Assembly: GCA_963825005.1 (NCBI GenBank)
Contig: CAWGRP010000019.1
Location: forward strand, 239,742-303,741
Source: an uncultured delta proteobacterium
GTDB lineage: Bacteria > Desulfobacterota > Syntrophorhabdia > Syntrophorhabdales > WCHB1-27
Direction of reading: 5' to 3'
Length of the DNA stretch: 64,000 bases
The stretch's first letter is position 1. Every line of letters begins with the position of its first letter. Below the pieces are notes generated by a model. It did not search any database and had not been told where the DNA came from. It was given only the letters and a program-made list of their open reading frames with translations. A program made the position numbers and the translations under genes. Below are positions 8,822-49,965 of this stretch, one piece after another.

Positions 8822-10726
8822 TCATGTACTGCTCCTGAAAAATAGAACAGAGAGCGGGGGCAACGTCAGCGAGAGAGAGTAGGCTCTTCCGTGGAAGGCA
8901 ACCGGAGTGGCTTCCACACCGCCCATATTTCCATACCCGCTTCCTCCGTATATTTTTGCATCGCTGTTGAGAATCTCCGGCCAGAAGCCGGCTCGCGGCG
9001 CGCCTACCCGGTAATTCTTTCTCGGAACAGGGGTCAGGTTGCAGACCACGAGGATGATATCGCCGCCTCTATTCCTTCGTATGAAGCTGATCACGCTCAA
9101 ATCGGTGTCCCGGAAATCGATCCACTCAAAACCTTCCCGCGTGAAGTCGATTGCATAGAGCGCAGGCTCGCCTCTGTAGAGATGGTTAAGGTCCTTGACC
9201 CATCGTTGCATTCCTTGATGGAGAGGATACCCGAGCAGGTGCCAGTCCAGGCTCTTCTCATGGTACCACTCATCCCACTGGCCGAATTCGCCTCCCATGA
9301 AAAGAAGTTTCTTCCCCGGATGGCCGTACATGTAGCCTAACAAGAGCCTGAGATTTGCGAACCTCTGCCAATCGTCTCCGGCCATTCTTCTGATAAGTGA
9401 GCCTTTCCCGAACACGACTTCATCGTGGGAGAGGGGAAGGAGGAAATTTTCGGAGAAAGCGTACCAGATGCTGAAGGCCAACTGGTTCTGGTTGTATTTT
9501 CTGAAGATGGGATCTTGAGAGAAATAGGCTAACGTATCGTGCATCCATCCCATATTCCATTTCAAGCCGAAGCCGAGCCCCCCGGCATACGTGGGTCTTG
9601 AGACCATGGGCCAGTCGGTCGATTCTTCCGCGATAGTCTGCACATCAGGATAATCTCTGTAGACAGCTTCGTTGAACTTCTTGATGCAGGCGATTGCTTC
9701 GAGGTTCTCCCTGCCTCCGTATTTGTTGGGGATCCACTCTCCGGGTTTTCTCGCGAAATCCAGGTAAAGCATCGAGGCGACGGCATCGACTCTCAAACCG
9801 TCGACATGGTAGCGGTCGAGCCAGAAAAGGGCGCTGCTGATCAGAAACGCCTTCACCTCGGATCTGCCATAGTTAAAGACGTGGCTCTTCCACTCGGGCT
9901 GAAATCCCTGCTTGGGATCGGCATGGTCGTAAAGATGCGTGCCGTCGAAATAGACCAACCCGTATTCGTTGTCAGGGAAGTGAGACGGGACCCAATCGAG
10001 GATCACGCCGATATCATTCTGGTGAAGAGTGTCTATCAGGAACATGAAATCCTGAGGGCTCCCATACCTGGTTGTCGGCGCAAAATAACCTAAGGGCTCG
10101 TACCCCCACGAACCGTAAAAGGGGTGCTCCATCACGGGGAGGAATTCAACGTGGGTGAATCCGAGTTCCTTGACATAATCGACGAGGTACACGGCCATCT
10201 CCCGATAGGTGAGGAAACGATTGCCCTCCTCGGGTACCCTTCTCCAGGAGCCGAGATGCACCTCGTACGTCGCCATGGGTGCATCGAGGGCGTTTGATTT
10301 GTGCCTCTGCTTCATCCATGTTCCGTCCCCCCATGTGTAGGCCAGGTCCCAGACTCTGGATGCTGTTTCGGGAGGAGACTCCCATCGAAACGCGAAAGGA
10401 TCGCCCTTATCAACGCTGTAATTATTATATCTGGAGACGAGGTGATACTTGTAAGAGGCTCCCTGCGCGATGCCGGGGAGAAAGCCTTCCCATATCCCTG
10501 AGTCGTCTTCTCTCCTTTGGAGGTAATGCGATTTTTTGTTCCAGTTGTTGAAGTCTCCCACCACCGAAACGCTCTTGGCATTAGGGGCCCAGAGAGCGAA
10601 GTATGCGCCTTGCGTATTGCCGGCGGTGACGATATGTGAACCAAGCTTATTGTAGAGTCTGAAATGGTTGCCCTGCTTGAAGAGGTAGATATCCTGATCA
10701 GAAAACAGCGTCACGTTCTCGGCCAT
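8822..10726 (-). CDS. glgB: 1,4-alpha-glucan branching enzyme
   Basis: GH13 blocks DGLRVDAVASMLY and EESTDWP. The N-terminus MAENVTLFSDQDIYLFKQGNH starts at ATG 10726, which overlaps the TAA of the upstream gene (TAATG). The ORF track extends to 10777. Confidence 0.9.
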   Translation of the reverse strand: MAENVTLFSDQDIYLFKQGNHFRLYNKLGSHIVTAGNTQGAYFALWAPNAKSVSVVGDFNNWNKKSHYLQRREDDSGIWEGFLPGIAQGASYKYHLVSRYNNYSVDKGDPFAFRWESPPETASRVWDLAYTWGDGTWMKQRHKSNALDAPMATYEVHLGSWRRVPEEGNRFLTYREMAVYLVDYVKELGFTHVEFLPVMEHPFYGSWGYEPLGYFAPTTRYGSPQDFMFLIDTLHQNDIGVILDWVPSHFPDNEYGLVYFDGTHLYDHADPKQGFQPEWKSHVFNYGRSEVKAFLISSALFWLDRYHVDGLRVDAVASMLYLDFARKPGEWIPNKYGGRENLEAIACIKKFNEAVYRDYPDVQTIAEESTDWPMVSRPTYAGGLGFGLKWNMGWMHDTLAYFSQDPIFRKYNQNQLAFSIWYAFSENFLLPLSHDEVVFGKGSLIRRMAGDDWQRFANLRLLLGYMYGHPGKKLLFMGGEFGQWDEWYHEKSLDWHLLGYPLHQGMQRWVKDLNHLYRGEPALYAIDFTREGFEWIDFRDTDLSVISFIRRNRGGDIILVVCNLTPVPRKNYRVGAPRAGFWPEILNSDAKIYGGSGYGNMGGVEATPVAFHGRAYSLSLTLPPLSVLFFRSST

Positions 10727-12366
10727 TATTCGCCTTCTATGAGATCCTTTACGCCTTGCAGCGGAATGGCCACCCACTCCGGACGATTGTTCAACTCGTA
10801 CCCGAGCTCGTAAACCGCTTTTTCCAGAAGATAGGCTTTGAGCATGATCTCCAGATCATTCTGGTCGCTCGCCATAAAGAGTGTATCTTTCACCGTCTGA
10901 AGGTAGGCCCCGATAAAAATTCCCGACACATAACGGTACCATAAATCGGTCCACGGCTGTAAAGAAGGTGTGTCCTCAGGTCTGACCGAGGCTTCTTTGA
11001 GGAGAGCGCTGTAGCCCACATAGTGAAAAGATCTTATCATACCTGCCGCATCCTTGAATGGTGATTGTTTGAGGCGTCTCTCGGTCAAAGGCCTCGCGGG
11101 CTCGCCCTCAAAATCGATGATAACAAAATCTTTTCCGGTATAGAGGACCTGACCCAGGTGATAATCGCCGTGTATCCGCATACGGATCGCGGAAAACTTA
11201 CGGTTCAGGAACTCTTGAAAAAAGGCCAGTATCTTCTGCTCTGATTGGAGGATGAGAAGGGCGTCATCTTTGAGAGCGTCCGGAATTTTCTTGATATTAT
11301 TCTTCAGAAGCTGCAGATTTCTCCTGAGAAGGGTGCGCATCGACTGGAAGACGGAACGCTGATACAATGTCGAGAACGATTCCGGAGTGAAGTCCGGCTG
11401 ATCCTGCATTGACGCCAGAGCGAGGTGCATCTCGCCCGTGCGTCTACCGAGCAGAGCGCTCATCTCCAGAAAATGACCTTCTATCAGTTCCTGCATTACC
11501 TGCGGAATACGGGATGAGTCGATTTCAAAAAGAGATGACGGGGGCTTTGGAATCTCTTTGATCTCTTTCGATTTGGCTAAGACACTTTCGAAGTACCGCA
11601 GGATAGCGTCCTGCGTATAGGTCCAGCCGTCGCCCTGACTGGGAATGAAGCCCTGGAGCAAACCGATTGTGGCCGGGACTCCGGCGAAGCTCCTGTATTC
11701 GACGGCGCCCGCGAAAGGCGCGATCGATCCGAAACCCGCCTGCTCGGTCAAGAGCCTGACGATTTCCTCATCAGGGTTGATCCCCTCGCTCAGCTTACGG
11801 AAAAGCTTGAAATAGAATGTATCCTCATAGAGGAAAGAAGTGTTACTCTGCTCCGCTTTAACCCTCTGAGAACTCAATTGGAGGCTTTTCCCGCCGATGA
11901 GTTTTCTGAAGAGCCTGCCCTGGTAGCCGATCAGTTCGCCTTTTTTCCCCCTGATCTTTTTCCTTCGCGCTATCATCGCGAGAAGGGACTCACGGAACGT
12001 ATTATCGTAGGATGCGTCGTACAGGATTCCTTCATCCTTCCCCGGCGTAGAGCCGCGCGATGATGCTTTCGGGTTGCGCTTCAGTGATCGATTTAGAACG
12101 TACGGTCGCCTCCCCGCTGGAGGACGTGGGGGACGATCCTCCCGATGCAGCGGCTTCTGCTCCCTGCTCTGATTTTTTTGAGAGGACAAATGAAACCGGC
12201 AGGAGGTAGAGCTCCTGCTGACCTTCGATGTAGGATACCTCAAGGAAAAGCAGATACGGCGAATCCGTATTCCCCACGGGTATGGACTCAACAATTTTGA
12301 TTTCCCGGATAGTGCTTGCTTTACCCCCGAACCACCGGCATTGCCGCAGGTAGCCCGGCAGGACAT
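10726..12366 (-). CDS. mak: Maltokinase (Mak/Pep2) catalytic part. This is the 3' half of a treS-mak fusion interrupted by a frameshift; the real coding part starts at about 12043.
   Basis: Kinase motif RIHGDYHLGQVLYTGKDFVIIDFEGEP. The sequence upstream of 12043 in this frame is low-complexity and overlaps treS. Confidence 0.8.
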   Translation of the reverse strand: MSCRATCGNAGGSGVKQALSGKSKLLSPYPWGIRIRRICFSLRYPTSKVSRSSTSCRFHLSSQKNQSREQKPLHREDRPPRPPAGRRPYVLNRSLKRNPKASSRGSTPGKDEGILYDASYDNTFRESLLAMIARRKKIRGKKGELIGYQGRLFRKLIGGKSLQLSSQRVKAEQSNTSFLYEDTFYFKLFRKLSEGINPDEEIVRLLTEQAGFGSIAPFAGAVEYRSFAGVPATIGLLQGFIPSQGDGWTYTQDAILRYFESVLAKSKEIKEIPKPPSSLFEIDSSRIPQVMQELIEGHFLEMSALLGRRTGEMHLALASMQDQPDFTPESFSTLYQRSVFQSMRTLLRRNLQLLKNNIKKIPDALKDDALLILQSEQKILAFFQEFLNRKFSAIRMRIHGDYHLGQVLYTGKDFVIIDFEGEPARPLTERRLKQSPFKDAAGMIRSFHYVGYSALLKEASVRPEDTPSLQPWTDLWYRYVSGIFIGAYLQTVKDTLFMASDQNDLEIMLKAYLLEKAVYELGYELNNRPEWVAIPLQGVKDLIEGE

Positions 12367-14131
12367 CGGCCTCCAGTTTTTCGCGAGCAGTCCCCTGGAA
12401 CACCTGTGACCAGTCAGTCAAGAATGTGCGCAACTCAGGAACGCTCCTTTCTTCGCGAACCGCGGCTGTCTCGTCGATCTTCCTGAGATATAACCAGATG
12501 TAATTGTAAGGCCCCATCGTGAGTACGTAAGGGGTTTCCCGGATAACCGGGAATTTTATCAGGCTGTACGTTGTTTGCGGCGTGAAGCCGGCATACTTCG
12601 AAAGGTCGAGCTCCACCACTTGAAAGAGCTTTGACAAATTGGCAACGATCAGGATCGTTTCCTCTTTAAACGTGCGGATGAAGACAAGGACTTTCGCATT
12701 GTCGGGGAAGAGGAATTCGGTCGTTCCCCTGCCGAGGGATGTGAGCCTTTTTCTCATGTGGATTACGCGTTTAAACCACCAGAGGAGCGAGGAGAGATTT
12801 CGCTGTTGATTCTCGACATTGATAGATTCGTAGTGGTATTCAGGGTCTATGACGACGGGCAGATAAAGCTGCTGGGGGTTTGCCATGGAAAACCCGGCAT
12901 TCCTGTCAGGGCTCCATTGCATCGGCGTCCTGACGCCGTTCCTGTCGCCGAGATAGTAGTTGTCGCCCATGCCTATTTCATTGCCATAATAGATGAACGG
13001 CGTGCCGGGGAGGGAAAAGAGGATCGCATAAATCAGCTCAAGTCGTCTTCTGTCATTTTCAAGGAGCGGAGCCAGGCGGCGCCGGATGCCAAGGTTGATC
13101 CTTGCGCGCGGGTCTCTCGCGTAGACGCGGTACATATAATCCCTCTCTTCGTCGGTAACCATCTCGAGCGTCAGTTCGTCATGGTTGCGCAGAAAGAGCG
13201 CCCATTGGCACGTCTCGGCGCAGATCTCGTCAATATTCGGGGTCTGCTGCAGAATATCGACGATCGGAAATCGATCTTCCATCTGAAGACCGATGAACAT
13301 CCTCGGCATGAGCGGGAAGTGGAAAGCCATGTGGCACATATCACCGGCGCCGAAGTAGGCGGCAGCGTCCTCAGGCCATTGGTTTGCTTCCGCAAGAAGT
13401 ATGCGCGCCTTGAACTTACCGTCTATGTGCTTCCTCATTTCTCTCAGGAATGCAAACGTTTCAGGCAGGTTTTCGCAATTGGTTCCCTCTCGTTTGAAGA
13501 GATAGGGAACCGCATCCAGCCTGAGACCGTCGACACCCATGCCCAGCCAGAAATCGACAACCTGGAATATCGCCTCCCGCACACGGGGGTTATCGTAGTT
13601 CAGATCGGGTTGGTGCGAGTAGAAACGGTGAAAATAATAGGCGCCCGCCACCGGGTCCCAGGCCCAGTTCGACGTTTCAAAATCCTTGAAAATGACCCTG
13701 GCATCTTTGTATCGATCCGGCGTGTCGCTCCAGATGTAAAAGTCGCGCGAGGACGACCCGGGCTTCGATCTTCGCGATTTCCTGAACCAGAGGTGCTGAT
13801 CCGACGTATGGTTGAGGATAAGCTCGGTGATCACGCGGATGCGTCGCCGGTGGGCCTCTCTCAGGAATCCTTTGAAGTCATGCAGCCGTCCGTAATCCGG
13901 ATGGACATCGAAATAATTTGAAATATCGTAGCCGTCATCCTTGAGCGGAGAAGGGTAGAAGGGCAAAAGCCAGATGGCGGTAATGCCGAGGTCCTCCAGG
14001 TAAGGGAGCCGTTCGGTCAGGCCCTTGAAGTCCCCTATGCCGTCGCCATTGCTGTCGCGATAAGCTTTTACGTGCGTTTCATAAATGATGGCATCCTTGA
14101 ACCAGAGCGGATCGTCTTCAAGTACAGGCAT
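12032..14131 (-). CDS. treS: Trehalose synthase (maltose alpha-D-glucosyltransferase) plus the N-terminal cap of maltokinase
   Basis: GH13 blocks GDFKGLTERLPYLEDLGITAIWLLPF, DGLRLDAVPYL, LAEANQWPED and FLRNHDELTLEMV. The C-terminal LPGYLRQCRWFGGK is the maltokinase N-terminal motif. Confidence 0.9.
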   Translation of the reverse strand: MPVLEDDPLWFKDAIIYETHVKAYRDSNGDGIGDFKGLTERLPYLEDLGITAIWLLPFYPSPLKDDGYDISNYFDVHPDYGRLHDFKGFLREAHRRRIRVITELILNHTSDQHLWFRKSRRSKPGSSSRDFYIWSDTPDRYKDARVIFKDFETSNWAWDPVAGAYYFHRFYSHQPDLNYDNPRVREAIFQVVDFWLGMGVDGLRLDAVPYLFKREGTNCENLPETFAFLREMRKHIDGKFKARILLAEANQWPEDAAAYFGAGDMCHMAFHFPLMPRMFIGLQMEDRFPIVDILQQTPNIDEICAETCQWALFLRNHDELTLEMVTDEERDYMYRVYARDPRARINLGIRRRLAPLLENDRRRLELIYAILFSLPGTPFIYYGNEIGMGDNYYLGDRNGVRTPMQWSPDRNAGFSMANPQQLYLPVVIDPEYHYESINVENQQRNLSSLLWWFKRVIHMRKRLTSLGRGTTEFLFPDNAKVLVFIRTFKEETILIVANLSKLFQVVELDLSKYAGFTPQTTYSLIKFPVIRETPYVLTMGPYNYIWLYLRKIDETAAVREERSVPELRTFLTDWSQVFQGTAREKLEADVLPGYLRQCRWFGGKASTIREIKIVESIPVGNTDSPYLLFLEVSYIEGQQELYLLPVSFVLSKKSEQGAEAAASGGSSPTSSSGEATVRSKSITEAQPESIIARLYAGEG

Positions 14132-18869: not shown

Positions 18870-20609
18870 CTATCTACTGCGGAGCAGCTTCTTCACATCG
18901 GGCCAGCTTCGCGTATTGATCACGTCTTCGGCCTCCAGCCAGCCCCGCCTGGCCTGGGCAACGCCGAACCGCATGAACAGAAGGTCTGTTCTGCTGTGCG
19001 CATCGGTGGAGATGGAAACCTTTACGCCGAAATCTTTTGCCATCTTGCAAAATCTGTCGGAGAGATCGAGGCGATCCGGATTGCCGTTTACCTCCATGAA
19101 GCAGCCCTTGGCGCGCGCTGCTTTCATCAGTTGCTCCATGTCCACGTCGTACGGCTGCCGTTCGTCTATCAGCCGGCCGGTAGGATGAGCGAGGATGTGG
19201 AAATAAGGATTCTCCATTGCCTTCAGGATTCGTTCCGTCTGTTGTGATTTCGAAAGATTAAACTTTGAATGGATCGAGCAAACGGTTATGTCCAGTTCTT
19301 TGAGGATGTTGTCAGGAAGATCCAGAGAGCCGTCCTCGTGAATGTCCACCTCGATCGATTTTAAGATGTGAATCGATTTCAGCCTCTTGTTCAGTTGATC
19401 GATCTCCTGGTTTCGCGCGGCAAGACGGACAGCGTCGAAGCCGCGTGTCATGGCGAGCCGTTGTGTGTGATCGGTAATCGCGATGTATGCATAACCCAGC
19501 TTGGCGGCGGCTTCAGCCATCTCCAGCGGCGTATTCCGACCGTCGGTTGTTTCCTTGGTGTGCGTGTGGAGGTCCCCCTTGATATCCTTTTGTTCAACAA
19601 GTCTTGGAAGGCGTCCTTCGCGGGCTGCCTCGATCTCGCCCCAGTTTTCCCTCAGCTCTGGTTCAATGTAAGGAAGACCCACCTGCCGGTAGACCTCTTC
19701 TTCGGTCTTGCCGGCAATCTGCTTCTCATCCCTGAAGACGCCGTACTCGTTGATTTTCAAGCCGGCCTTCATGCCAAGCTTGCGGATTGCTATGTTGTGC
19801 TCTTTGCAGCCGGTGAAGTAGTGGAGTGCTGCCCCGTAGCTCACCTGGGGCACAAGACGAAGATCGACCTGCAAGCCGGAGCGCAATATCACGCTGGAGC
19901 GGGTCGATCCATGCGAGATGACCTTTTTCACATTCTCATACTGTGTGAAATGCTCCATGATGGGACATTCGGCGCTGCAGGTTGCGAGAATATCGAGGTC
20001 GCCCACTGTCTCTTTCTTGCGGCGGTAGCTTCCGGCGACCTCGATATTCTGTATGCCCTTCACGGCCTGGAGGTAATGAACCAGGGATTCGGCTATCTCC
20101 TCGGCGACCGGAAGCTTGACGCGATCCTTTTTTTGTTCCGTTCCCTCCTCAGGCGTGCCGCCCAATTCTTCCACTATTGCCTGCTCGGTCTTCTTGCCAA
20201 AACCGGGAAGTTCGCTGATCGCGCCTTTGCTCGCCGCCTCTTTCAACTGCTGCATGGTGCTGATGCCCAATGTTTCGTAAAGGGCATGAACGCGTTTGGG
20301 ACCGAGGCCGGCTACCCTCATGAGCTTACCTAATTCGCCGGGCATGCGCGCTTCCATTTCCTGCAGTTCAGGAAACGTTCCGGTCTTCACCATCTGTGCA
20401 ATCTTGTTGGCGAGATCTTTACCAATGCCGGAAAACTGGGTGAGATCTTCGTTCCTGCCGACCATCTCGGCTACACTTTGCGGAAGGCTGGCGATAATAC
20501 GGGCAGCATTTCTGTACGCACGCACCCTGAACTGATTGGCTCCCTCTATTTCGAGCAGGTCCGCCATTTCATTGAAGCGATCAATTATCTCTGCGTTATG
20601 AACGGGCAT
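18870..20609 (-). CDS. polX: Family X DNA polymerase with C-terminal PHP phosphoesterase domain
   Basis: N-terminal ...LLEIEGANQFRVRAYRNAAR, HhH motifs, and the PHP block IKGDLHTHTKETTDG...ITDH. Confidence 0.9.
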   Translation of the reverse strand: MPVHNAEIIDRFNEMADLLEIEGANQFRVRAYRNAARIIASLPQSVAEMVGRNEDLTQFSGIGKDLANKIAQMVKTGTFPELQEMEARMPGELGKLMRVAGLGPKRVHALYETLGISTMQQLKEAASKGAISELPGFGKKTEQAIVEELGGTPEEGTEQKKDRVKLPVAEEIAESLVHYLQAVKGIQNIEVAGSYRRKKETVGDLDILATCSAECPIMEHFTQYENVKKVISHGSTRSSVILRSGLQVDLRLVPQVSYGAALHYFTGCKEHNIAIRKLGMKAGLKINEYGVFRDEKQIAGKTEEEVYRQVGLPYIEPELRENWGEIEAAREGRLPRLVEQKDIKGDLHTHTKETTDGRNTPLEMAEAAAKLGYAYIAITDHTQRLAMTRGFDAVRLAARNQEIDQLNKRLKSIHILKSIEVDIHEDGSLDLPDNILKELDITVCSIHSKFNLSKSQQTERILKAMENPYFHILAHPTGRLIDERQPYDVDMEQLMKAARAKGCFMEVNGNPDRLDLSDRFCKMAKDFGVKVSISTDAHSRTDLLFMRFGVAQARRGWLEAEDVINTRSWPDVKKLLRSR

Positions 20610-20842
20610 GGCTAGCTAGCGCCTCCATTAACCAAATCTAATACCAATTCGTGGTCAAGGGTGTAGGCCGGGGGGCACTCCGGGCCACACGAACAAATGT
20701 GCATGAGAAAATGGAAAGGCAAAGGCCGGTTAGTTCAGGGGCACGTGAGAAATGCGTATAAAAAAGGAAGGGGCGGGGAAGACCGTTTTCTCCGCTCTCT
20801 CAATAGATTGCAGGTTCTATTTAGTGCACGCGAGAAGTGGAT

Positions 20843-21107
20843 GGCCAGCCGGAAGAACTGTTCGTTCCACGAGTTAGGCGCTGCAGGTCTGACCCGCGCT
20901 ACACTCCGCCTCCTTCGATGCTCATTGCGAACTCCTCTTTTCAGGCTTCCTGTATTGGCAGCTCGCAAAATATAGGATTTGCGTCTGCTCGGCCTCGGAG
21001 TCAGGCGCATCGTGCCGCGCCAATCACATGCGCGGCAACAGTCGTCTCCGCTGCCGGGTCCCCAGACCTTCCGCGATACTCGTTCCACGAACAGTTCTTC
21101 CGGCCGG
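20843..21107 (-). repeat. Family-1 repeat, subtype 1, copy A1 (about 265 nt, rod-forming)
   Basis: The reverse complement aligns end to end with 25881-26143 and 44330-44597. Terminal arms are GGCCAGCCGGAAGAAC / GTTCTTCCGGCCGG. Confidence 0.85.
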
Positions 21108-21169
21108 TCATTATGTGCGTTGTTGTGTCTGACAAAATTTTAAAACAATACCGTAGAGCCCGGTGGGCT

Positions 21170-21417
21170 GGGAGGACCTTTTTCGGAGCGAACATCGCGG
21201 AAGGGCTGGGGACCCGTAAACGCAGGCGAGTGGTGCTGCACATCGTGAGGTGCAGCACGATGCGTCCGACTCCGAGGCCTCGCAGCTCTGAACAATCTGG
21301 TTTGCGAGCTGCCATGGTAATCTACGGTACCCGAGGGGTTCGCAGTCAAAAAGCATCGAACTCGCCGGAGTGTCCAACGGGTCAGACCTGGAGCGTCTAG
21401 AGAGCGGAGAAAACGGT
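21170..21417 (+). repeat. Family-1 repeat, subtype 2, copy A2
   Basis: By eye, the reverse complement of 25527-25775 differs from this copy at only scattered positions. It shares conserved blocks with subtype 1 (ATCGCGGAAGGGCTGGGGACCCG, GACTCCGAGGCC, GTTTGCGAGCTGCC, GTTCGCA, CGGGTCAGACCTGGAGCG). Confidence 0.85.
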
Positions 21418-21532
21418 GCGAGCAGCCCGCCCTTTCCCGCGGCGTGGATTTCTTGCTCTTCCGTGTTTAGTGTATAGTTAGCGCCGTTGCGATGACCATT
21501 GCTGTGGTGAATGCGGACACACCGGGCGTCAT

Positions 21533-23704
21533 GTGAGCATGAAAGAATCGCGGTTTCAATTCGGCCTCTATTTCTTGCCCTTCGTCATATGGGTTCCGCT
21601 CATCATTTTTCTTCTCTGGTTTGTCTTCCATTACGTTGACCTGAAGCCGCAGGTAAACGAGAACTTCTTCTTCGCGAGCAGTGATCCGCAACTGCAGACA
21701 GACCGGTTGATCTCGAAGCTCTTTATACAGGAAGATCAACTCGTCGTGGCTGCAACGGGTGACATCCGTTCTCCTCGATATCTCGAGAAATTACACCGCC
21801 TGACGGAAGAGCTCTCGGCTATTCCGCAGATTGACACGGTGGAATCCCTGGTAAAAGGACCCAAGGACACTGATGAGGCCCTGAAGAGCCCTCTCTGGAA
21901 ACGGGTCCTCTTTTCCGAAGATCACAAGGCTTCTTTTGTCTACGTCTGGGTAAAGCGGCAAGCTTCGTTGGATAAAGCGGTCGCGGGGATTGAACATGTT
22001 GTGCTCCGTCTGAATACGCCCGATTTTCCACTCAGGATATCCGGCGCCCCGTACATCATGCATCTCATCGAGCGCAATCTTTTGCGAGACCTGAAGATAT
22101 TCAGCATTGGGGCCTTTTGTGTCTTCGGACTCTGCGGCCTCGCAATATCGCGCTCAATTCCCATGGTCCTTGGAACGCTGATCGCCTGCACCATCGCAAG
22201 CGCCGTCACTCTGATGCTGACGCACAAATTCGCCATACCGGTCGGGCCTCTCACTGCCAACCTTTCCACGATCGTCTTCGTGCTCACGCTCACCCACATG
22301 GTATTCATGACCTACAATTTCCGGCACATCATCCAGAAGAAAGAGGCAGCTCTCGATGAAGCGTGGCGCCGGGCGGTAAGGGTCACGATACTGCCGTCGT
22401 CTTTGAGCATGCTCACCGCGCTTTTCGGTTTTTTGAGCCTTCTTATCGTTCCTGCAACACCGCTGCGCCAACTGGGAATCTCCGGTGCCATCGGGACGGT
22501 TATCGCTTTCGTATCAGCTTATGTTGTCTATCCTTTATTTCTGAGGGCACAAAGATCAGGCCTCGCTCCTCAACATAAGAAGACGGCGGATGCGCGCACC
22601 GAATCGACAGACGTAGCGCCATTCTTCAGAAAGAGGCACGGCAGGATTGTTGCGCTCATTCTCATCGCTGCAGCGGGTGCTTCGATAGGCCTCTGGACGC
22701 TGAACACGGAGCCGAGTATCTTTTCCTATTTCAAGAAAGGGAGCGAACTGAGAACGAGTCTCGAATATTTCGACCGGAACGGCGGGAGCATCCCGCTCAA
22801 TATGGTGGTGGCGAATCCCAATAAGGCGCCGTTCAAGATCGGTGAAGACTACCAGAGGCTCTGGAACCTTCAGACGGCACTGGAGAAGGATCCTGCCGTA
22901 GGAACCGTAATGTCTCTGGCGCTCCTTCTCGCCGAGGCCAAGACCAGGCACCCGGTACTCACCTTTTTTATTCCGCTGAAATGGGTGCTGAAAGCGTTGG
23001 AAAGCAGCCGCTTCGAGAACGCGGCAAAGTATTACATATCAAATGATGAATCGAAAACGCTCCTCGTGCTGAGAATGAAAGAGGAGTCGCAGCAATCCGA
23101 TCGGCTGGCAAACGTTGAGCGGCTGAAGAAAATAGTCCGCAAAGAAGGGTTTGAGCCGGTGCTCATAGGAGGCACGTACGTGCTGTATGGGAAACTTTCA
23201 AAGCTCGTGGGATCGAGTCTCATCGAAGGTCTCGGGCTTCTGGTCCTGATGTTCACGATCATGGGCGGTATCATCTCCCGCTCCTTCAGAGTGACTGTGG
23301 CGGTCTTCATCGGTTTGGCTGATATTCCTCTCCTGCTGCTTGGCCTGATAGGTCTTTTCCGTATTCCTATAGATATCATTTCAGCTCCCGGCGCCAATAT
23401 CGCCATCGGGATCGGCGTGGATGCGATGATCCACATGCTTATCTGGGTGAGACGCCACCCGGCCGGCATGCGCTCCTGGGAGGCGTGGTCTCCCGTCAGC
23501 TCGAGATTGCGAAAGCCGATTCTTTATTCCATGAGCGTCGTCTGTGCCGGATTCGGAATCTTCATGCTGTCCGGTTTCCCTCCCACGCAGCGTTTTGGTT
23601 TCTCGGTCGTACTGGGAACATTGCTGACGCCGCTCTCGGCGCTCTTCATCCTGCCATGGTTCAGCACGATGCAACTGGGTTGGCATCGTTCAAAGGTTTC
23701 ATGA
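21533..23704 (+). CDS. MMPL/RND-superfamily membrane transporter
   Basis: 723 aa with two blocks of about 6 TM helices separated by soluble loops, the typical MMPL/SSD architecture. Confidence 0.75.
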   Translation: MSMKESRFQFGLYFLPFVIWVPLIIFLLWFVFHYVDLKPQVNENFFFASSDPQLQTDRLISKLFIQEDQLVVAATGDIRSPRYLEKLHRLTEELSAIPQIDTVESLVKGPKDTDEALKSPLWKRVLFSEDHKASFVYVWVKRQASLDKAVAGIEHVVLRLNTPDFPLRISGAPYIMHLIERNLLRDLKIFSIGAFCVFGLCGLAISRSIPMVLGTLIACTIASAVTLMLTHKFAIPVGPLTANLSTIVFVLTLTHMVFMTYNFRHIIQKKEAALDEAWRRAVRVTILPSSLSMLTALFGFLSLLIVPATPLRQLGISGAIGTVIAFVSAYVVYPLFLRAQRSGLAPQHKKTADARTESTDVAPFFRKRHGRIVALILIAAAGASIGLWTLNTEPSIFSYFKKGSELRTSLEYFDRNGGSIPLNMVVANPNKAPFKIGEDYQRLWNLQTALEKDPAVGTVMSLALLLAEAKTRHPVLTFFIPLKWVLKALESSRFENAAKYYISNDESKTLLVLRMKEESQQSDRLANVERLKKIVRKEGFEPVLIGGTYVLYGKLSKLVGSSLIEGLGLLVLMFTIMGGIISRSFRVTVAVFIGLADIPLLLLGLIGLFRIPIDIISAPGANIAIGIGVDAMIHMLIWVRRHPAGMRSWEAWSPVSSRLRKPILYSMSVVCAGFGIFMLSGFPPTQRFGFSVVLGTLLTPLSALFILPWFSTMQLGWHRSKVS

Positions 23705-23724
23705 AGAAGAATATAAATAGAATT

Positions 23725-23963
23725 TCATCGCAGATGAACGCAGATAAGGAAAAGAGAGATGTTCACAGATGATATGCCGGTGGACAGCATTGAGATAGAG
23801 CGACAATGCTGTCCACACTTCAGCGCTCCGCGGGTCAGGTCTCACCCCACCGGAGGTGCTGGGGTTGACCGGCTGTGACGCTCTATCACACAGGCGGTCA
23901 AGAAATAATCATCAGCGTTCATCATAGCCCTTATCCGCTCTTATCTGCGATGAAGAAAGCGGG
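23725..23963. repeat. Family-4 MITE-like repeat, long copy 1
   Basis: Termini TCATCGCAGATgaacGCAGATAAGG / CCCTTATCCGCTCTTATCTGCGATGA. Internal 13-bp hairpin GTGGACAGCATTG...CAATGCTGTCCAC. Homologous to 32652-32914. Confidence 0.8.
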
Positions 23964-24021
23964 CTGTGAGTGATATCTGTCGCAGTATTGCGACATAAAC
24001 CTGACTGAAGGAGTCAGACCC

Positions 24022-25260
24022 ATGAAGATCACGATTTTAACCAACGAATATCCGCCACACGTGTATGGAGGAGCAGGTGTGCACGTCGAACACCTTGCGC
24101 GAGAACTTTCCAGGCTGCGCGAAGAAGATCTCTCGGTGCAGGTGCTTTGTTTCGGCGACCAGAGAGAAGAGTCACCTCCACTGCATGTACAGGGGATAGA
24201 AAAACCGTGCGATATACGGTCGAGCGATGAGCGCGACGCCAAATTGCTCGAGACGTTTCTCAGAGACGTGATGATGGTCGGTGCTGCGCAGGATACCGAT
24301 ATTGTTCATTGTCACACCTGGTATACGCACCTGGCGGGTTGTCTCGTGAGGCAACTGCGGCAGTGTCCTCTGGTGCTCACCACGCATTCTCTGGAACCTC
24401 AGCGCCCGTGGAAGGAGGAGCAACTCGGGTCGGGCTATGCAGTCAGCACATGGGTCGAGAAGACCGCCTACCACAGTGCCGATGGAGTGGTCGCAGTCTC
24501 TCAATCGATGAAACAGGCTGTGCATGATCTGTATGGCGTCCCGTTTGAGAAGGTGCAAGTGATTCCGAACGGCGTTGACACCGAGGTCTACAAACCAACG
24601 CCTGACCCTGCGCTTCTTGCATCCTTTGGTATCGATCCGGCCAAACCGTACCTGCTCTTCGTGGGAAGGGTTACACGGCAGAAAGGTATCATCCACCTCG
24701 TGAATGCAATCAAGCATCTCGCATCAAATGTGCAGGTCGTACTCTGCGCCGGGGCGCCGGACACGCCTGAGATCGGACGCGAGATGGCTGAAAAGGTCGA
24801 ATCCGTGCGGGCGCAAACGCAGAACCCGATCATCTGGATAGAGCGCTGGGTTCCGCGTGACCAGATCGTCACGCTCTACACGCACGCTTCTTTGTTTGTC
24901 TGCCCGTCAGTCTATGAGCCGTTCGGTATTATCAACCTTGAGGCGATGGCCTGCGGCACGCCGGTCGTTGCATCCGCAGTGGGCGGTATCCCGGAAGTGG
25001 TGGTTCAGGGGAAAACCGGTCTGCTGGTGCCGTTCGAGAGCAAGGCTGAGAATGATCCGGAACCTCGGGAACCGGAACGATTTGCCGCAGACCTGGCTGG
25101 CGCGATCGATCGCATTTTCAGCTTGTCTGCTGATATGGACCTCATGCGCCGAAGCTGCCGCGAATGGGTAGAGGAGCGCTTCAGCTGGAAAACCGTGGCG
25201 AGCGAGACGTACCGGTTCTACAGTGACCTGATAAAGACCGACCGCTCCGCGAAGACGTAG
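24022..25260 (+). CDS. GT4 glycosyltransferase of the actinobacterial glycogen-synthase type, a likely GlgM-like alpha-maltose-1-phosphate synthase
   Basis: MKITILTNEYPPHVYGGAGVHVEHLAREL.., HTWYT.LAG, THSLEP.RPWK.EQLG.GY, FVGR.TRQKG, CAGAPDTPEI and VCPSVYEPFGIINLEAMACGTPVVAS. By recollection it aligns along the whole length with mycobacterial GlgM. Confidence 0.8.
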   Translation: MKITILTNEYPPHVYGGAGVHVEHLARELSRLREEDLSVQVLCFGDQREESPPLHVQGIEKPCDIRSSDERDAKLLETFLRDVMMVGAAQDTDIVHCHTWYTHLAGCLVRQLRQCPLVLTTHSLEPQRPWKEEQLGSGYAVSTWVEKTAYHSADGVVAVSQSMKQAVHDLYGVPFEKVQVIPNGVDTEVYKPTPDPALLASFGIDPAKPYLLFVGRVTRQKGIIHLVNAIKHLASNVQVVLCAGAPDTPEIGREMAEKVESVRAQTQNPIIWIERWVPRDQIVTLYTHASLFVCPSVYEPFGIINLEAMACGTPVVASAVGGIPEVVVQGKTGLLVPFESKAENDPEPREPERFAADLAGAIDRIFSLSADMDLMRRSCREWVEERFSWKTVASETYRFYSDLIKTDRSAKT

Positions 25261-25307
25261 GACGCTAGGACGACCGTCATGCTGACCGGGGCAGGTCGGG
25301 CCGCTCG

Positions 25308-25440
25308 GACCGTTTTCTCCGCGAACTAGGCGCTCCGAAAAGGCTCCTCCCCGCCCGCCAGGCCAGTGCAGTATTGTCTTAAAATGTTGTCAGACACAAT
25401 AACGCAACACAATGGCCGGCCGGAAGAACTTTCGTTCCAC
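25308..25440 (-). repeat. Family-1 partial composite copy B1: internally deleted subtype 2, the central spacer, and only the terminal arm of subtype 1
   Basis: The reverse complement matches 21085-21190 (..GAACGAAAGTTCTTCCGGCCGGCCATTGTGTTGCGTTATTGTGTCTGACAACATTTTAAGACAATAC..). It then jumps from GGAGCG to the subtype-2 3' end CCTAGTTCGCGGAGAAAACGGTC. Confidence 0.7.
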
Positions 25441-25526
25441 TCTCCATTCGAGTAGGTAGGAGCGATCAGAAAGGCATCCGACGAGTTGAGTCGACTAGAA
25501 CCGTACCGAAGGGGGGGGCGGGGAGG

Positions 25527-25775
25527 ACCGTTTTCTGCACTCTCTAGGCGCTCCAGGTCTGACCCGTTGGACACTCCGGCGAGTTCGATGCTTTTTGACT
25601 GCGAACCCCTCGGGTACCGTAGATCACCATGGCAGCTCGCAAACCTGCATTGTTCTGACCTGCTAGGCCTCGGAGTCGGACGCATCGTGCTGCACCTCGC
25701 GATGTGCAGCACCACTCGCCTGCATTTACGGGTCCCCAGCCCCTCCGCGATGTTCGCTCCGAAAAAGGTCCTCCC
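25527..25775 (-). repeat. Family-1 repeat, subtype 2, copy B2
   Basis: Reverse complement of A2 (21170-21417). Confidence 0.85.
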
Positions 25776-25880
25776 CGCCCTCACCCGGTCGATGATAAAT
25801 TGAACACGACGAAAATTTAATCGTCAGACATAAATCGTGCAGGGTATTGGCATTTACAAGAAAAGTAACGACTATGGTAT

Positions 25881-26143
25881 GGCCAGACGGAAGACTTTCG
25901 TGGAACGAGTATCGCGGGAGGTCTGGGGACCCGGCAGCGCAGACGACTGGTGCCGCGTATCTGATTGGCGCGGCACGACGCGCCTGACTCCGAGGCTTGA
26001 GTGAGCGTCAGAGGTTAGTTTGCGAGCTGCCGATCTCGGAAGATTGGAGAAAGGTGTTCGCAATGAGCGTCGAAGGAGGCGGAGCGTAGCACGGGTCAGA
26101 CCGGGAGCGCCTAACTCGTGGAATGAAAGTGTTCCGGCTGGCC
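25881..26143 (+). repeat. Family-1 repeat, subtype 1, copy B3
   Basis: GGCCAGACGGAAGACTTTCGTGGAACGAGTATCGCGGGAGGTCTGGGGACCCGG...CGGGTCAGACCGGGAGCGCCTAACTCGTGGAATGAAAGTGTTCCGGCTGGCC. Confidence 0.85.
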
Positions 26144-26213
26144 ATTCCTTTATGCAGCGGTAGTTTGTCTGTTTTGCAGGGCGAACTGGTAAAAAGATGA
26201 AGGCTTGTAGATT

Positions 26214-32651: not shown

Positions 32652-32914
32652 TCATCGCAGATTTACGCAGATGAATAAAAGAGATATTCGCAGAGTGCGC
32701 AGCCTCCTGTAAGGGTGACCAAGCTTGTGTCCAGCATTGTGATACAGCGTCAATGCTGTCCATCCACCCGCAAGCGGGTACCCGAGCGCTCCGCGCAGGG
32801 GTGTCACCTCACCGGAGGTGCTGCAGGTTGACCGGCTGTGCCGCCCTATCGCACAGGCGGTCAAGAATGAATCATCCGCAGTTATCAGAGCCTTTATCCG
32901 CTCTTATCTGCGAT
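32652..32914. repeat. Family-4 MITE-like repeat, long copy 2
   Basis: Termini TCATCGCAGATttacGCAGATGAAT / GCCTTTATCCGCTCTTATCTGCGAT. The interior is collinear with 23725-23963 (..CACCGGAGGTGCTG..GTTGACCGGCTGTG..CACAGGCGGTCAAGAA..). Confidence 0.8.
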
Positions 32915-32992
32915 AAAATGCTCTGTCTTAATGAACTGGACGGTGAAAAGGTTCAAAAAGTTTGACAACCTATAAGAAATAAGGAGATCAAT

Positions 32993-37509: not shown

Positions 37510-37548
37510 AAGAGCGGCCAAAAGGTCTTGTGACAAGCAAAGGACGAT

Positions 37549-37775
37549 TTCACCACAGAGGCACAGAGGTCACAGAGAAGTGCTCCACGGAGAACCGAAA
37601 TTATTCGTGTCCGAAACAGTGGAGATTCTGTTCCGGACACACACCGACGCTCCGCGTAGGTGTGGAAGGCATCTCGCCTCCCGCAGGGATGCGAGTGACC
37701 GGATATGGTCGTCTCCCCATATCCGGTCGAAACTACTTAGGGCTTCCTCTGTGTACTCTGTGCCTCCGTGGTGAA
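37549..37775 (+). repeat. Family-2 repeat, copy 1 (about 227 nt)
   Basis: Terminal inverted repeats CACCACAGAGGCACAGAG / CTCTGTGCCTCCGTGGTG and four internal hairpins. Collinear with 41261-41488. Confidence 0.85.
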
Positions 37776-37828
37776 TACAAGTAGTTTTCGAAGCCTGGCG
37801 AAAAGTCGGGCACGAGTAGGAGGATTGA

Positions 37829-41215: not shown

Positions 41216-41260
41216 TGGCCGGTGAATTTGTTAAACGTTTTATGAAAAAGGAAATGAAAA

Positions 41261-41488
41261 TTCTACCACAGAGGCACAGAGGGCACAGAGAAGTGCTCCA
41301 CGGAGAAAGAATAATTTCGTGTCCGGAACAGTGGAGATTCTGTTCCGGACACACACCGACGCTCCGCGTAGGTGTAGTAAGTACCTGTGCCCCGCAGGGG
41401 TGCAGGTGACCGGATATGGCCGTCTCCCCATATCCGGTCAGAAACTACTTAAGGCTTTCCTCTGTGTCCTCTGTGCCTCCGTGGTGAA
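41261..41488 (+). repeat. Family-2 repeat, copy 2
   Basis: Same orientation as copy 1 and collinear with it. Confidence 0.85.
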
Positions 41489-41526
41489 TGAAAATAACTG
41501 ACATGCCTTAGTCAAAGGAGCATGCT

Positions 41527-42789: not shown

Positions 42790-43030
42790 GAGGGAAGACC
42801 GCCGCGGGCTAGGAAGATCGTTCGCGATGCTCACTAGGAAGACCGCCTTCGGCTAGGAAGATGGAAGAGAGAAACCTATATCTACTGAGACGGTACCAGC
42901 GGATGTTCGCTTTTGCTTCCTAGTCACGCCAAGGCGTGACGGTCTTCCTGGCGCGTAGCGCGATCTTCCCCCCTTCGGGGACTTCGCCTCTTCCTAGCCC
43001 TCCAGGTCCCCGCAAGGGGGGCAGCGGTCT
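42790..43030. repeat. Family-3 word repeat element, copy 1
   Basis: Multiple CTAGGAAGA(C/T)CG words in both orientations around the core GGAAGAGAGAAACCTATATCTACTG..ACCAGCGGATGTTCGCTTTTGCTTCCTAGTCACGCC. Collinear with 49056-49298. Confidence 0.8.
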
Positions 43031-43095
43031 TTTTCCATTTGACATCGGATATTGGTTCTATCTATAATAGGTCAGACCTATTAGCGGAGGTGTCT

Positions 43096-44262: not shown

Positions 44263-44329
44263 TAACGGTTCGTTCTGAACACCTTCGTTATCGAGCTTTC
44301 TGGTAATTAGATGGGGACGAATAATCAAT

Positions 44330-44597
44330 GGACAGCCGGAAGAACTTTCGTGGAACGAGCATCGCGGGAGGTCTGGGGACCCGGCAGCGGAGATGACTGG
44401 TGCCGCGTATCCGTATGGGCGCGGCACGACGCGTTCTGACTCCGAGGCTTGAGTAAACGTAAAGAGAATAGTTTGCGAAGTGCCAGAGGGCAAATGATCA
44501 TGGGCAACGTTCGCAATGAGCGTCGAAGGAGTCGGAGCGTAGCACGGGTCAGACCGGGAGCGCCTCGCTCGTGGAACGAACAGTCTTCCGGCTGGCC
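44330..44597 (+). repeat. Family-1 repeat, subtype 1, solitary copy C
   Basis: Collinear with B3 and with the reverse complement of A1. Confidence 0.85.
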
Positions 44598-44621
44598 ATT
44601 TCCTTAACCGAAGGGGTGTTG

Positions 44622-46396: not shown

Positions 46397-46418
46397 CGAT
46401 GTGAGGGAGGAGGAAGCT

Positions 46419-49003: not shown

Positions 49004-49055
49004 ATTGAATCGTAGTTACTAAAAGTCTATTGAGCAAGGGGGCGCGTGAAAGACA

Positions 49056-49555: not shown

Positions 49556-49608
49556 GCCGTCTTAAGTTTATAATATAATCCCGTATCCATGTCAATGCCT
49601 GCTGCCGG

Positions 49609-49871: not shown

Positions 49872-49965
49872 CGAGGATCGCTGCAGGATCAGGAAGCCTG
49901 TCCTACTGCTGTGGATTTCTCTTGGTGACGAAATAGTATGGACGCGCAAGGAAAAATATGACTAT

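What the first reader, a model, noticed from the sequence alone, without database searches (positions are those of the whole stretch)
20776..26143. Composite family-1 loci are mutually inverted and bracket the MMPL transporter and GlgM-like genes
Locus A (20776-21420) is [subtype 1 reverse]-AT-rich spacer-[subtype 2 forward]. Locus B (25527-26143) is [subtype 2 reverse]-spacer-[subtype 1 forward], which is the reverse complement of locus A.

The two subtypes therefore always sit head to head around a spacer containing ..TGTCTGACA(A/G)..ATTTT... The two ~600-bp composites form inverted repeats flanking 21533-25260 (the MMPL and GT4 genes).

Locus A is itself bounded by GACCGTTTTCTCCGCTCTCT (20781-20800) and AGAGAGCGGAGAAAACGGT (21399-21417). 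B1 (25308-25440) is a third composite, internally deleted between two GGAGCG repeats.

This geometry allows inversion of the 4-kb segment by homologous recombination. Alternatively, the head-to-head pair could be a divergently transcribed unit driven from the AT-rich spacer.
Basis: partly seen in the sequence, partly recalled or inferred. Interest (0 to 1): 0.65.

Follow-up and report, generated by a model that had tools for sequence, protein, structure and literature searches.

The report
Paired structured repeats flanking two genes
Two mirror-image copies of a ~650-base module, each made of two head-to-head ~280-base elements that fold into a conserved RNA-like structure not found in Rfam, flank a transporter gene and a glycogen-pathway gene. 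They look like dispersed copies of a repeat family, not a switch that flips the genes.

Summary
Locus A (20764-21441) and locus B (25503-26154) are reverse complements (80.6% over 644 nt). Each holds a subtype-1 unit and a subtype-2 unit head to head around an AT-rich spacer. A decayed third composite lies at 25293-25446 and a solo subtype-1 copy at 44324-44608.

The unit is a ~275-nt non-coding element with no Rfam match. Homologues occur in Syntrophorhabdus aromaticivorans, other Syntrophorhabdia and related MAGs, and soil or wetland contigs. Its fold has strong covariation support: 35 of 64 pairs carry compensatory changes, and 90% of cells pair against 34-41% in slid controls. G-U pairs mark the sense strand, so the two units of each composite point away from the spacer.

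Head-to-head pairs recur at about 11 independent places in other genomes, so the pair is a conserved module.

A related contig (L031) has PolX next to the MMPL leader in the same orientation, without locus A. No recombinase or transposase lies nearby. Crossover between A and B would rebuild the same layout. Available reads cannot test orientation.

Best reading: duplicated copies of a novel structured repeat or RNA family, with incidental inverted geometry. Function is unknown.

The parts
20764..20800 (-). Solo fragment of the subtype-2 3' arm. It forms the left inverted terminal repeat of composite A and pairs in inverted orientation with 21399-21437.
   Evidence: D3, I22; B2rev 246-282 at 86%.
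20832..21116 (-). Unit A1, subtype 1. Sense strand is minus, pointing towards PolX.
   Evidence: nhmmer E 8e-85. Fold z-score -7.1. Strand from G-U counts.
21117..21157 (.). AT-rich spacer A with the palindrome TGTCTGACA at 21126-21134. Putative shared control region for the divergent pair.
   Evidence: No strict sigma-70 match.
21158..21441 (+). Unit A2, subtype 2. Sense strand is plus, pointing towards MMPL.
   Evidence: nhmmer E 2e-80. 93-95% identical to B2.
21444..21532 (+). MMPL leader. Its orthologue in L031 lies directly beside the PolX upstream region, with no composite between.
21533..23704 (+). MMPL/RND-superfamily transporter gene.
   Evidence: Pfam PF03176; weak HAE3/MMPL hits in NCBIfam. 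Orthologues sit next to DUF748, GT4 and alpha-amylase genes in relatives.
23722..23958 (+). A separate structured repeat ('family 2') in the MMPL-GT4 intergenic region, closed by a 26-bp stem. Not part of family 1.
   Evidence: I17. Second copy at 32673-32920. Fold z-score -6.9. Raised depth in runs X1 and X5.
24022..25260 (+). GT4 glycosyltransferase of the GlgM ('glgA_Coryne') type.
   Evidence: TIGR02149 at 486 bits against a cutoff of 302. Pfam GT4/GT1. GlgE-pathway genes at 6-16 kb.
25293..25363 (-). 'Mini' subtype-2 unit of the remnant composite: 5' arm fused to 3' arm at GGAGCG, with the core deleted.
   Evidence: (I10, I13, D9). The same mini form appears in metatranscriptome contigs.
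25364..25446 (.). Remnant spacer (TGTCAGACA at 25388-25396; 84% like spacer A) plus a single subtype-1 arm at 25407-25446.
   Evidence: (I7, I16).
25503..25788 (-). Unit B2, subtype 2. Sense strand is minus, pointing towards the GT4 3' end.
   Evidence: nhmmer E 7e-78.
25789..25875 (.). Spacer B, longer than spacer A, with TGTCTGACG (reverse complement) at 25822-25830.
25876..26154 (+). Unit B1, subtype 1. Sense strand is plus, pointing towards the rpoZ 3' end.
   Evidence: nhmmer E 3e-81.
44324..44608 (+). Solo subtype-1 unit (wC). It ends 15 nt before the GntR-family gene start at 44623. It is 90% identical to the subtype-1 unit of metagenome contig L030.

Best explanation
Family 1 is an undescribed family of ~215-290-nt non-coding elements found in Syntrophorhabdia and related Desulfobacterota.

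Structure (shown). One strand folds into a conserved structure. A long closing stem pairs the 5' and 3' ends. Along this stem, GGA on one strand repeatedly lies opposite GGA on the other, forming symmetric purine-rich internal loops. The stem leads to a branched core with invariant stretches: CUGGGGACCCG, GACUCCGAGG, UUUGCG...UUCGCA and CGGGUCAG.

Arrangement (shown). The elements occur as solo copies, as 'mini' hairpins that have lost the core, and as head-to-head pairs of two diverged subtypes around a short AT-rich spacer. The ~650-700-nt pair is itself a repeated module. It usually ends in inverted copies of one unit's 3' arm.

In this window (inferred). Two such modules (A and B), a decayed third and a solo copy are the products of duplicative spread. 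Locus A probably arrived after the split from the lineage of contig L031. Its inverted orientation relative to B is incidental.

Mechanism (inferred, not shown). The sense strand of each unit is transcribed outward from the spacer, or by read-through from neighbouring genes. It acts as RNA, for example as a protein-binding or RNase III-processed rod that insulates or processes neighbouring transcripts.

Recombination (inferred). Exchange between A2 and B2 has probably produced gene conversion. The segment is not a programmed invertible switch.
For: Family and structure:
- Five full copies lie in the window.
- Homologues occur in S. aromaticivorans UI, Syntrophorhabdus PtaB.Bin006, four other MAGs and six metagenome contigs.
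- No Rfam family matches and there is no conserved ORF.
- On a sequence-only alignment of 22 copies, 64 pairs are 89.7% paired against 34-41% when partners are slid. 35 pairs carry double changes, and 0 of 500 shuffles reach this.
- In a hold-out test, the structure from the 5 window copies alone gives 75.8% pairing in 17 foreign copies against 33-41% slid.
- Strand: 85 G-U cells vs 22 A-C cells, and the sense strand folds better in 18 of 22 copies.

Module:
- L029 and L030 hold the same subtype-1/subtype-2 composite in unrelated flanks.
- Seven further loci (L012, L019, L009, L010, L024, L028, L033; six independent places, since L028 and L033 are the same place) pair a main unit head to head with a ~215-240-nt 'subtype 3' unit.
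- 7 of 10 composites carry the main unit's 3'-arm fragment beyond the partner.

Repeat-like behaviour:
- Fragments and mini forms occur.
- Family-1 pieces have roughly 4-25 times the depth of flanking sequence in runs X1 and X24.
- Locus A is absent from the orthologous site in L031.
- The window holds four more closed-stem repeat families.

Against a switch:
- No recombinase was found.
- L031 has the same orientation as the window.
- MMPL, GT4 and DUF748 are native neighbours in relatives that lack the composites.
Against: - No transcript ends were mapped. The metatranscriptome evidence is only a few low-depth contigs at 80-90% identity.
- The strict sigma-70 scan finds no promoter in any spacer.
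- No target-site duplication was seen and no transposase association was found, so mobility is inferred only from distribution.
- The termini are the least conserved part and the core the most conserved. This is the reverse of a classical MITE and fits a functional RNA gene equally well.
- L031 is a single 1.5-kb metagenome contig that also carries a deletion of MMPL-GT4. It could be misassembled, or it could have lost locus A secondarily.
- Within-window copies are 81-95% identical, so there has been no recent burst of copying.
- The covariation structure was predicted from the same family of sequences. The hold-out test eases this concern only in part.
Confidence: 0.55

Rival explanations
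1. The units are ordinary trans-acting small RNA genes. Paralogue pairs are transcribed divergently from a shared control region, and each ends at its closing stem plus a U-rich tail. The many copies are gene-family expansion, not selfish spread.
For: - Invariant single-stranded core motifs and strong covariation hold across genera.
- Subtypes are older than the species splits: wC is 90% identical to the L030 unit, but subtypes 1 and 2 are only 70% alike within the window.
- -10-like hexamers (TATGGT, TATGAT, TATCGT, CATAAT) lie just upstream of subtype-1 units, and U-rich tails (UCCUUUAU, CCCCUUUUUUU) follow the closing stem.
- The palindrome TGTCTGACA in the three window spacers could be an operator.
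Against: - Decayed copies, solo arms and mini forms are frequent.
- Depth implies several to tens of copies per genome.
- Several copies end 18-40 nt before a co-directional ORF start (wC, L012, L009, L021). Those copies must be transcribed through, so the closing stem cannot be an efficient terminator there.
- Spacers of ~35-45 nt in the subtype-3 pairs barely hold two promoters.
- No strict promoter was found.
- The extra 3'-arm fragment that bounds the composites is unexplained by this model.
Confidence: 0.25
2. The two inverted composites make MMPL-glgM an invertible segment. Homologous recombination between them flips the 4-kb block, giving population heterogeneity.
For: Inverted repeats of 644 nt include a 76-nt identical run and 95% identity over the subtype-2 halves. 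The higher identity of the subtype-2 halves than of the subtype-1 halves suggests past exchange between A and B.
Against: - No site-specific recombinase lies nearby.
- Crossover would reproduce the same layout, so there would be no regulatory consequence (inference from geometry).
- Overall divergence of 20% argues against frequent exchange.
- L031 shows the same gene orientation without locus A.
- No read evidence exists either way.
Confidence: 0.07
3. The composites act like the arms of a composite transposon and brought MMPL-glgM in as cargo.
For: Two inverted copies of a repeat bracket two genes. Locus A is absent in L031.
Against: - The repeats encode no transposase and none was found among the window ORFs checked.
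- MMPL, GT4, DUF748 and alpha-glucan genes are neighbours in relatives without the composites.
- glgM belongs with the GlgE-pathway cluster at 6-16 kb.
- L031 keeps the MMPL leader and GT4 tail in place without locus A.
- Base composition is not distinct.
Confidence: 0.03
4. The units are cis-regulatory leaders (riboswitch-like) of the genes downstream of them, for example A2 for MMPL and wC for the GntR-family gene.
For: A2 lies 95 nt upstream of MMPL, wC 15 nt upstream of the GntR gene, and three foreign copies 24-38 nt upstream of ORFs.
Against: - Downstream genes are unrelated to one another.
- Many copies face the 3' ends of convergent genes: B1, B2, L022, L010, L019 and L036.
- The MMPL leader exists without A2 in L031.
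Confidence: 0.03

Closest known systems
REPIN / BIME elements (REP doublets of Pseudomonas and enterobacteria; PMC3116915, PMC3337134)
   Same: Two structured units in inverted orientation, separated by a short spacer, form the repeated module. Distinct unit subtypes alternate, as Y and Z REPs do in BIMEs (from my own knowledge). The elements are intergenic, non-coding and multi-copy, persist vertically, and also occur as solo units.
   Different: Units here are 215-290 nt with a branched, covarying core, not 20-40-nt simple palindromes. The module is ~700 nt, not ~100 nt. No RAYT transposase was seen. No population of near-identical copies is evident.
MITEs with RNA-level effects, e.g. Neisseria Correia elements and ERIC (reviewed in PMC3184786)
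   Same: Terminal inverted repeats give a long hairpin when transcribed. The elements are intergenic and often co-transcribed with neighbouring genes. Presence/absence differs between relatives, and internally deleted variants occur.
   Different: No target-site duplication was found and no parent IS is known. The termini vary between subtypes, with compensatory changes, while the interior is strongly conserved across genera.
Multi-copy structured RNAs tied to mobile elements, e.g. HEARO / IscB omega-RNA (Rfam RF02033)
   Same: A large, covariation-supported RNA fold present in many copies per genome, often without an adjacent ORF.
   Different: There is no Rfam hit to HEARO or any other family, even at E<=10. 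No IscB- or TnpB-like ORF was found among the ten neighbouring ORFs checked by Pfam.
'Multicopy nucleotide sequences' catalogued in Geobacter genomes (PMC2700814, PMC2996986)
   Same: Families of intergenic repeats of unknown function in Desulfobacterota-related genomes.
   Different: No sequence relationship was established. Those papers surfaced in a literature search but were not read, and the comparison rests on my own knowledge.
Invertible DNA segments (Hin/Gin, fim switch, shufflons)
   Same: A segment bracketed by inverted repeats.
   Different: The repeats are long and diverged, there is no invertase, and inversion would have no predictable effect on expression.

Membership tests
Programmed DNA inversion switch | Inverted repeats flank the invertible segment | tested here: met
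   644 nt at 80.6% in reverse complement. These are far longer and more diverged than typical 10-30-bp switch sites.
Programmed DNA inversion switch | Site-specific recombinase gene adjacent | tested here: not met
   Pfam on 29 of the larger ORFs between 6 and 47 kb found no serine or tyrosine recombinase and no transposase.
Programmed DNA inversion switch | Both orientations present in sequencing reads | tested here: inconclusive
   Only four soil-metagenome runs hold 5-15% of the sampled words, as contigs of 60-270 nt. None spans a repeat.
Programmed DNA inversion switch | Inversion changes which promoter drives which gene | tested here: not met
   The MMPL leader and the GT4 upstream region lie inside the segment, and the repeats are symmetric. 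Crossover within the subtype-2 units therefore rebuilds the same layout (inference).
REPIN / BIME | Two units in inverted orientation around a short spacer as the repeated module | tested here: met
   Seen in window loci A and B and the remnant, and in L029, L030, L012, L019, L009, L010, L024 and L028/L033.
REPIN / BIME | Unit is a short (20-40 nt) imperfect palindrome | tested here: not met
   Units are 215-290 nt with about 15 helices.
REPIN / BIME | Cognate RAYT (Y1 transposase) in the genome, flanked by the repeats | not tested
   None was found among the window ORFs checked.
MITE | Terminal inverted repeats, non-coding, under ~1 kb | tested here: met
   Closing stems of 20-34 bp (I12 and I15), a composite bounded by inverted 3'-arm copies, and no conserved ORF.
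MITE | Target-site duplication at the ends | tested here: not met
   No direct repeat was seen at the ends of solo units or at the locus A / L031 junctions. The junctions are only known to about +/-10 nt.
MITE | Presence/absence polymorphism at orthologous sites | tested here: met
   Window 20681-21443 has no counterpart in L031, where the PolX upstream region joins the MMPL leader directly. This rests on a single contig.
MITE | Parent autonomous IS sharing the termini | not tested
   No transposase was seen in the window, or among the ten flanking ORFs checked in the loci. Whole genomes were not scanned.
Any Rfam 15 RNA family | Match to a curated covariance model | tested here: not met
   At gathering threshold the whole window gives only two tRNAs. 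At E<=10, locus A and L012 give only chance miRNA-like hairpin hits.
Independent small RNA gene | Conserved secondary structure with covariation on one strand | tested here: met
Independent small RNA gene | Own promoter and terminator, and a discrete transcript | tested here: inconclusive
   -10-like hexamers and U-rich tails were seen by eye, but the strict scan was negative. The RNA runs give only fragmentary, unstranded contigs.

The most novel reading that the evidence does not exclude
The head-to-head pair could be a new kind of vertically persistent genomic replicator. It would be a REPIN-like module an order of magnitude larger than known ones, whose propagation or host function depends on a conserved complex fold. 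That fold is a rod with repeated GGA/GGA loops and a branched core, formed in RNA or single-stranded DNA. The partner's 3' extension, which copies the main unit's 3' arm, would let the two products, or the two DNA ends, interact. If so, Syntrophorhabdia genomes carry a previously unseen class of structured mobile or semi-domesticated elements. The several other closed-stem repeat families in this window may belong to the same class.
Probability: 0.2. Interest if true: 0.8.

Novelty: new member of a known kind. Interest (0 to 1): 0.5.

Why it matters
If the fold is functional, this is a new, well-supported structured RNA family in a poorly studied group of syntrophic anaerobes. It has an unusual conserved two-unit divergent architecture and repeated purine-rich internal loops that suggest a protein partner.

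If the family is selfish, it extends the REPIN/BIME idea (inverted doublets as the unit of persistence) to much larger and more complex units.

There are practical consequences too. These repeats break short-read assemblies, and they create inverted homology that could rearrange the alpha-glucan, MMPL and PolX neighbourhood.

Tried and rejected
- Rfam at gathering threshold and at E<=10 on locus A and L012 gave nothing beyond tRNAs and chance hairpin hits.
- Two viral-collection scans found no true homologue. All 42 hits to the loose pattern failed the profile check.
- Exact-protein look-ups of the window's GT4 and MMPL proteins returned nothing on record, so no sister contigs were found.
- The read-orientation test failed. 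Runs X1-X4 hold only short contigs at depth ~2-4, and the 'joints' reported are other family copies mapping in pieces.
- RNA evidence is weak. X5, X30 and X31 give only scattered, low-depth, unstranded contigs.
- Strict sigma-70 and terminator scans of the three loci gave no promoter, and terminator counts at chance level.
- A coding test found no conserved ORF.
- Synteny around MMPL and PolX in relatives at 64-76% protein identity is too scrambled to call an ancestral orientation. DUF748 is divergent from MMPL in two relatives and co-directional in one, as it is in the window.
- GC content and skew show nothing distinctive for the bracketed segment.
- Literature searches by sequence motif and by organism found no description of the family.
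- A covariance model was not built.

Full report
**1. What is there**

A ~280-nt unit occurs five times in the 64 kb:
- A1: 20832-21116 (-)
- A2: 21156-21439 (+)
- B2: 25503-25783 (-)
- B1: 25872-26154 (+)
- a solo copy, wC: 44321-44608 (+)

A1, B1 and wC form subtype 1 and are 81-85% identical to each other. A2 and B2 form subtype 2 and are 93-95% identical. The two subtypes are about 70% alike.

Locus A is therefore [subtype 1, minus] - spacer - [subtype 2, plus]. Locus B is its reverse complement, at 80.6% over 644 nt. A global alignment shows that the subtype-2 halves share identical runs of 76, 34 and 32 nt. The subtype-1 halves are about 87% identical, and the spacers differ by indels.

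A third, decayed composite lies at 25293-25446. It consists of a subtype-2 unit that has lost everything between two GGAGCG, a spacer 84% like spacer A, and one subtype-1 arm.

TGTCTGACR occurs only in these three spacers.

**2. Gene context**

- PolX: 18870-20609 (-)
- MMPL/RND transporter: 21533-23704 (+)
- GT4 enzyme: 24022-25260 (+). It passes the NCBIfam cutoff for the GlgM-type 'glgA_Coryne' family.
- rpoZ, gmk and yicC, all (-)
- Upstream: DUF748, glgE, treS and maltokinase, glgB and GH57

None of the 29 larger ORFs checked by Pfam between 6 and 47 kb is a recombinase or transposase. The best named PolX relatives are Syntrophorhabdaceae and Syntrophorhabdales, so the organism belongs to Syntrophorhabdia.

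**3. What the unit is**

It matches no Rfam family, at gathering threshold or at E<=10. It contains no conserved ORF.

A pattern built from two invariant blocks found true homologues in these genomes:
- Syntrophorhabdus aromaticivorans UI
- Syntrophorhabdus sp. PtaB.Bin006
- two 'delta proteobacterium' MAGs
- a Syntrophobacterales MAG

The remaining hits to the pattern, mostly in Actinobacteria, were chance matches. Six metagenome contigs also carry it. The viral collection holds none.

A sequence-only MAFFT alignment of 22 copies (A3) shows invariant blocks separated by helices that vary in sequence and length. The blocks are CTGGGGACCCG, GACTCCGAGG, TTTGCG...TTCGCA and CGGGTCAG.

Support for the RNAalifold structure:
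- It has 64 pairs, and 89.7% of cells pair, against 34-41% when partners are slid by 1-3 columns.
- 35 pairs carry double (compensatory) changes, and 0 of 500 shuffles reach this.
- A structure derived from the five window copies alone still pairs 75.8% of cells in the 17 foreign copies, against 33-41% slid. 19 of its pairs are fully compensated.

G-U cells outnumber A-C cells 85 to 22, and the aligned strand folds better in 18 of 22 copies. This fixes the sense strand.

Reading the alignment directly, the 5' and 3' ends form a long closing stem. GGA on one strand repeatedly lies opposite GGA on the other, giving symmetric purine-rich internal loops. This stem leads to a branched core.

**4. 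The head-to-head pair is a conserved module**

With the sense strand fixed, A1 and B2 read on the minus strand and A2 and B1 on the plus strand. In both composites the two units therefore point away from the spacer.

The same subtype-1/subtype-2 composite, 75-77% identical over ~650 nt, occurs in metagenome contigs L029 and L030. The flanks of those two contigs are unrelated to each other and to the window.

In L012, L019, L009, L010, L024 and L028/L033, the main unit is paired head to head with a shorter 'subtype 3' relative of ~215-240 nt. This relative is itself 78-84% conserved between genomes and is also absent from Rfam.

Counting orthologous contigs once, about 11 places hold pairs and about 9 hold solo units.

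In 7 of 10 composites, a 17-37-nt copy of the main unit's 3' arm lies just beyond the partner's 3' end, matched to the local subtype. The ~700-nt module therefore ends in inverted repeats.

**5. Repeat-like behaviour**

- Solo arms, decayed copies and 'mini' hairpins recur. A mini form is in the window at 25293-25363, and the same form appears in contigs of a wetland metatranscriptome.
- Family-1 pieces reach up to 10-25 times the depth of flanking sequence in a soil metagenome. In a run holding S. aromaticivorans-like sequence they reach roughly 4-20 times.
- The window holds at least four more families of 140-280-nt closed-stem intergenic repeats. One of them lies in the MMPL-glgM intergenic region at 23722-23958.
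- Several family-1 copies end only 15-40 nt before a co-directional ORF start (wC, L012, L009, L021). Those copies must be transcribed through.
- Neighbouring genes are unrelated from locus to locus.
- One possible recurrence: a family copy lies convergent to the 3' end of the glgM-type gene in the window, in L031 and in L036. The L036 GT4 is 75% identical in protein to the window's.

**6. Is the segment invertible?**

Contig L031 (1,554 bp) carries a PolX 5' region 84% nt identical to the window's. Its upstream sequence follows the window to about 20680 and then continues directly with the MMPL leader (window 21444-21492). It then jumps to the last ~75 nt of the GT4 gene, translated as ...ETYRFYKDLIRTDRSTSK*.

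That lineage therefore lacks locus A, has deleted MMPL-GT4, and keeps PolX(-), leader(+) and GT4 tail(+) in the window's orientation.

Relatives at 64-76% protein identity show MMPL beside DUF748, GT4 and alpha-amylase genes without composites. This argues that MMPL and glgM are native to the neighbourhood, not imported cargo. At that distance gene order is too scrambled to infer an ancestral orientation.

The geometry is symmetric. Crossover within the subtype-2 units would still leave a subtype-2 unit ahead of MMPL and one facing glgM, so no regulatory change is expected (inference).

The higher identity of the subtype-2 halves suggests past gene conversion. Recombination between A and B is therefore plausible as an occasional event.

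The direct test failed. Only four soil-metagenome runs hold part of the region, as contigs of 60-270 nt.

**7. Conclusion**

The two composites are copies of a conserved two-unit module that belongs to an undescribed family of structured, non-coding elements in Syntrophorhabdia.

Shown:
- homology and conservation across genera
- covariation and strand bias
- the recurrent head-to-head architecture
- fragments, and the indel at locus A

Inferred:
- transcription outward from the spacer
- action at the RNA level
- spread by duplication
- an incidental, not programmed, inverted arrangement

Whether the family is a set of genuine sRNA genes or a REPIN/MITE-like persistent repeat is open. I favour the repeat reading because of the fragments, the copy number, the inverted terminal arms and the sibling repeat families. 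The strongly conserved core keeps the sRNA reading alive.

Transcript mapping, long-read orientation counts and a genome-wide census would settle these points.

Noticed in passing
window 23722-23958 and 32673-32920: 'Family 2': a ~235-250-nt structured intergenic repeat closed by a 26-bp stem (TTCATCGCAGATGAACGCAGATAAGG / CCTTATCCGCTCTTATCTGCGATGAA). The two copies are 78% identical. The fold z-score is -6.9 for the 317-nt intergenic stretch 23705-24021 that holds the first copy. One copy lies between MMPL and glgM, inside the bracketed segment. Its depth is 5-10 times that of the flanks in soil metagenome X1, and it also appears in metatranscriptome X5.
   Followed up: partly
window 37521-37776 and 41233-41489: 'Family 3': a 259-nt repeat at 86% identity, with a long closing stem (CACCACAGAGGCACAGAGG...CCUCUGUGCCUCCGUGGUG) and internal hairpins. 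The copies lie downstream of the B12-binding and saccharopine-dehydrogenase-like genes.
   Followed up: partly
window 42796-42998 and 49055-49260: 'Family 4': a ~210-nt repeat at 87% identity, built from nested CUAGGAAGACCG-type arms that fold into one long rod.
   Followed up: partly
window 49608-49741 and 49736-49884: A tandem pair of ~135-150-nt units (79% alike) next to tRNA-Gly and tRNA-Cys. Homologues lie in L003:3369-3484 (86%), in L029:1794-1869 (91%, just beside the family-1 composite) and in L013:582-657.
   Followed up: no
L031:581-960 (Ga0187779_10127429): A related lineage has deleted about 3.7 kb, covering MMPL and most of glgM (window ~21493-25183). It keeps the MMPL leader and the last ~25 codons of glgM. 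A subtype-1-like unit lies ~170 nt further on, convergent to the glgM tail.
   Followed up: yes
L036:5853-6091 (ERZ25039512 contig_17548): A solo 'subtype 3' unit lies immediately downstream of, and convergent to, a glgM orthologue (75% aa identity). It is 2 kb from an MMPL orthologue (72%), and the gene order there is GT4...MMPL, not MMPL-GT4.
   Followed up: partly
window 6082-7317 / 7280-8521 and 10726-12366 / 12032-14131: The GH57/DUF3536 gene appears split into two overlapping ORFs. The treS-type amylase ORF overlaps a maltokinase ORF by ~335 nt. These may be frameshifts, sequencing errors or genuine overlaps within the GlgE-pathway cluster.
   Followed up: no
window 43086-44195 and 46409-47536: Two paralogous 4Fe-4S-cluster protein genes (69% nt identity over 1.1 kb) flank the solo family-1 copy, the GntR-family gene and a DctP-type solute-binding-protein gene.
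   Followed up: no
L028:2002-2511 and L033:588-1141: These are the same locus in two related metagenome contigs (a flanking stretch is 96% identical). Each carries a subtype-3/main pair. The 3'-arm fragment beyond the partner keeps even the T-run of the main unit's tail.
   Followed up: partly
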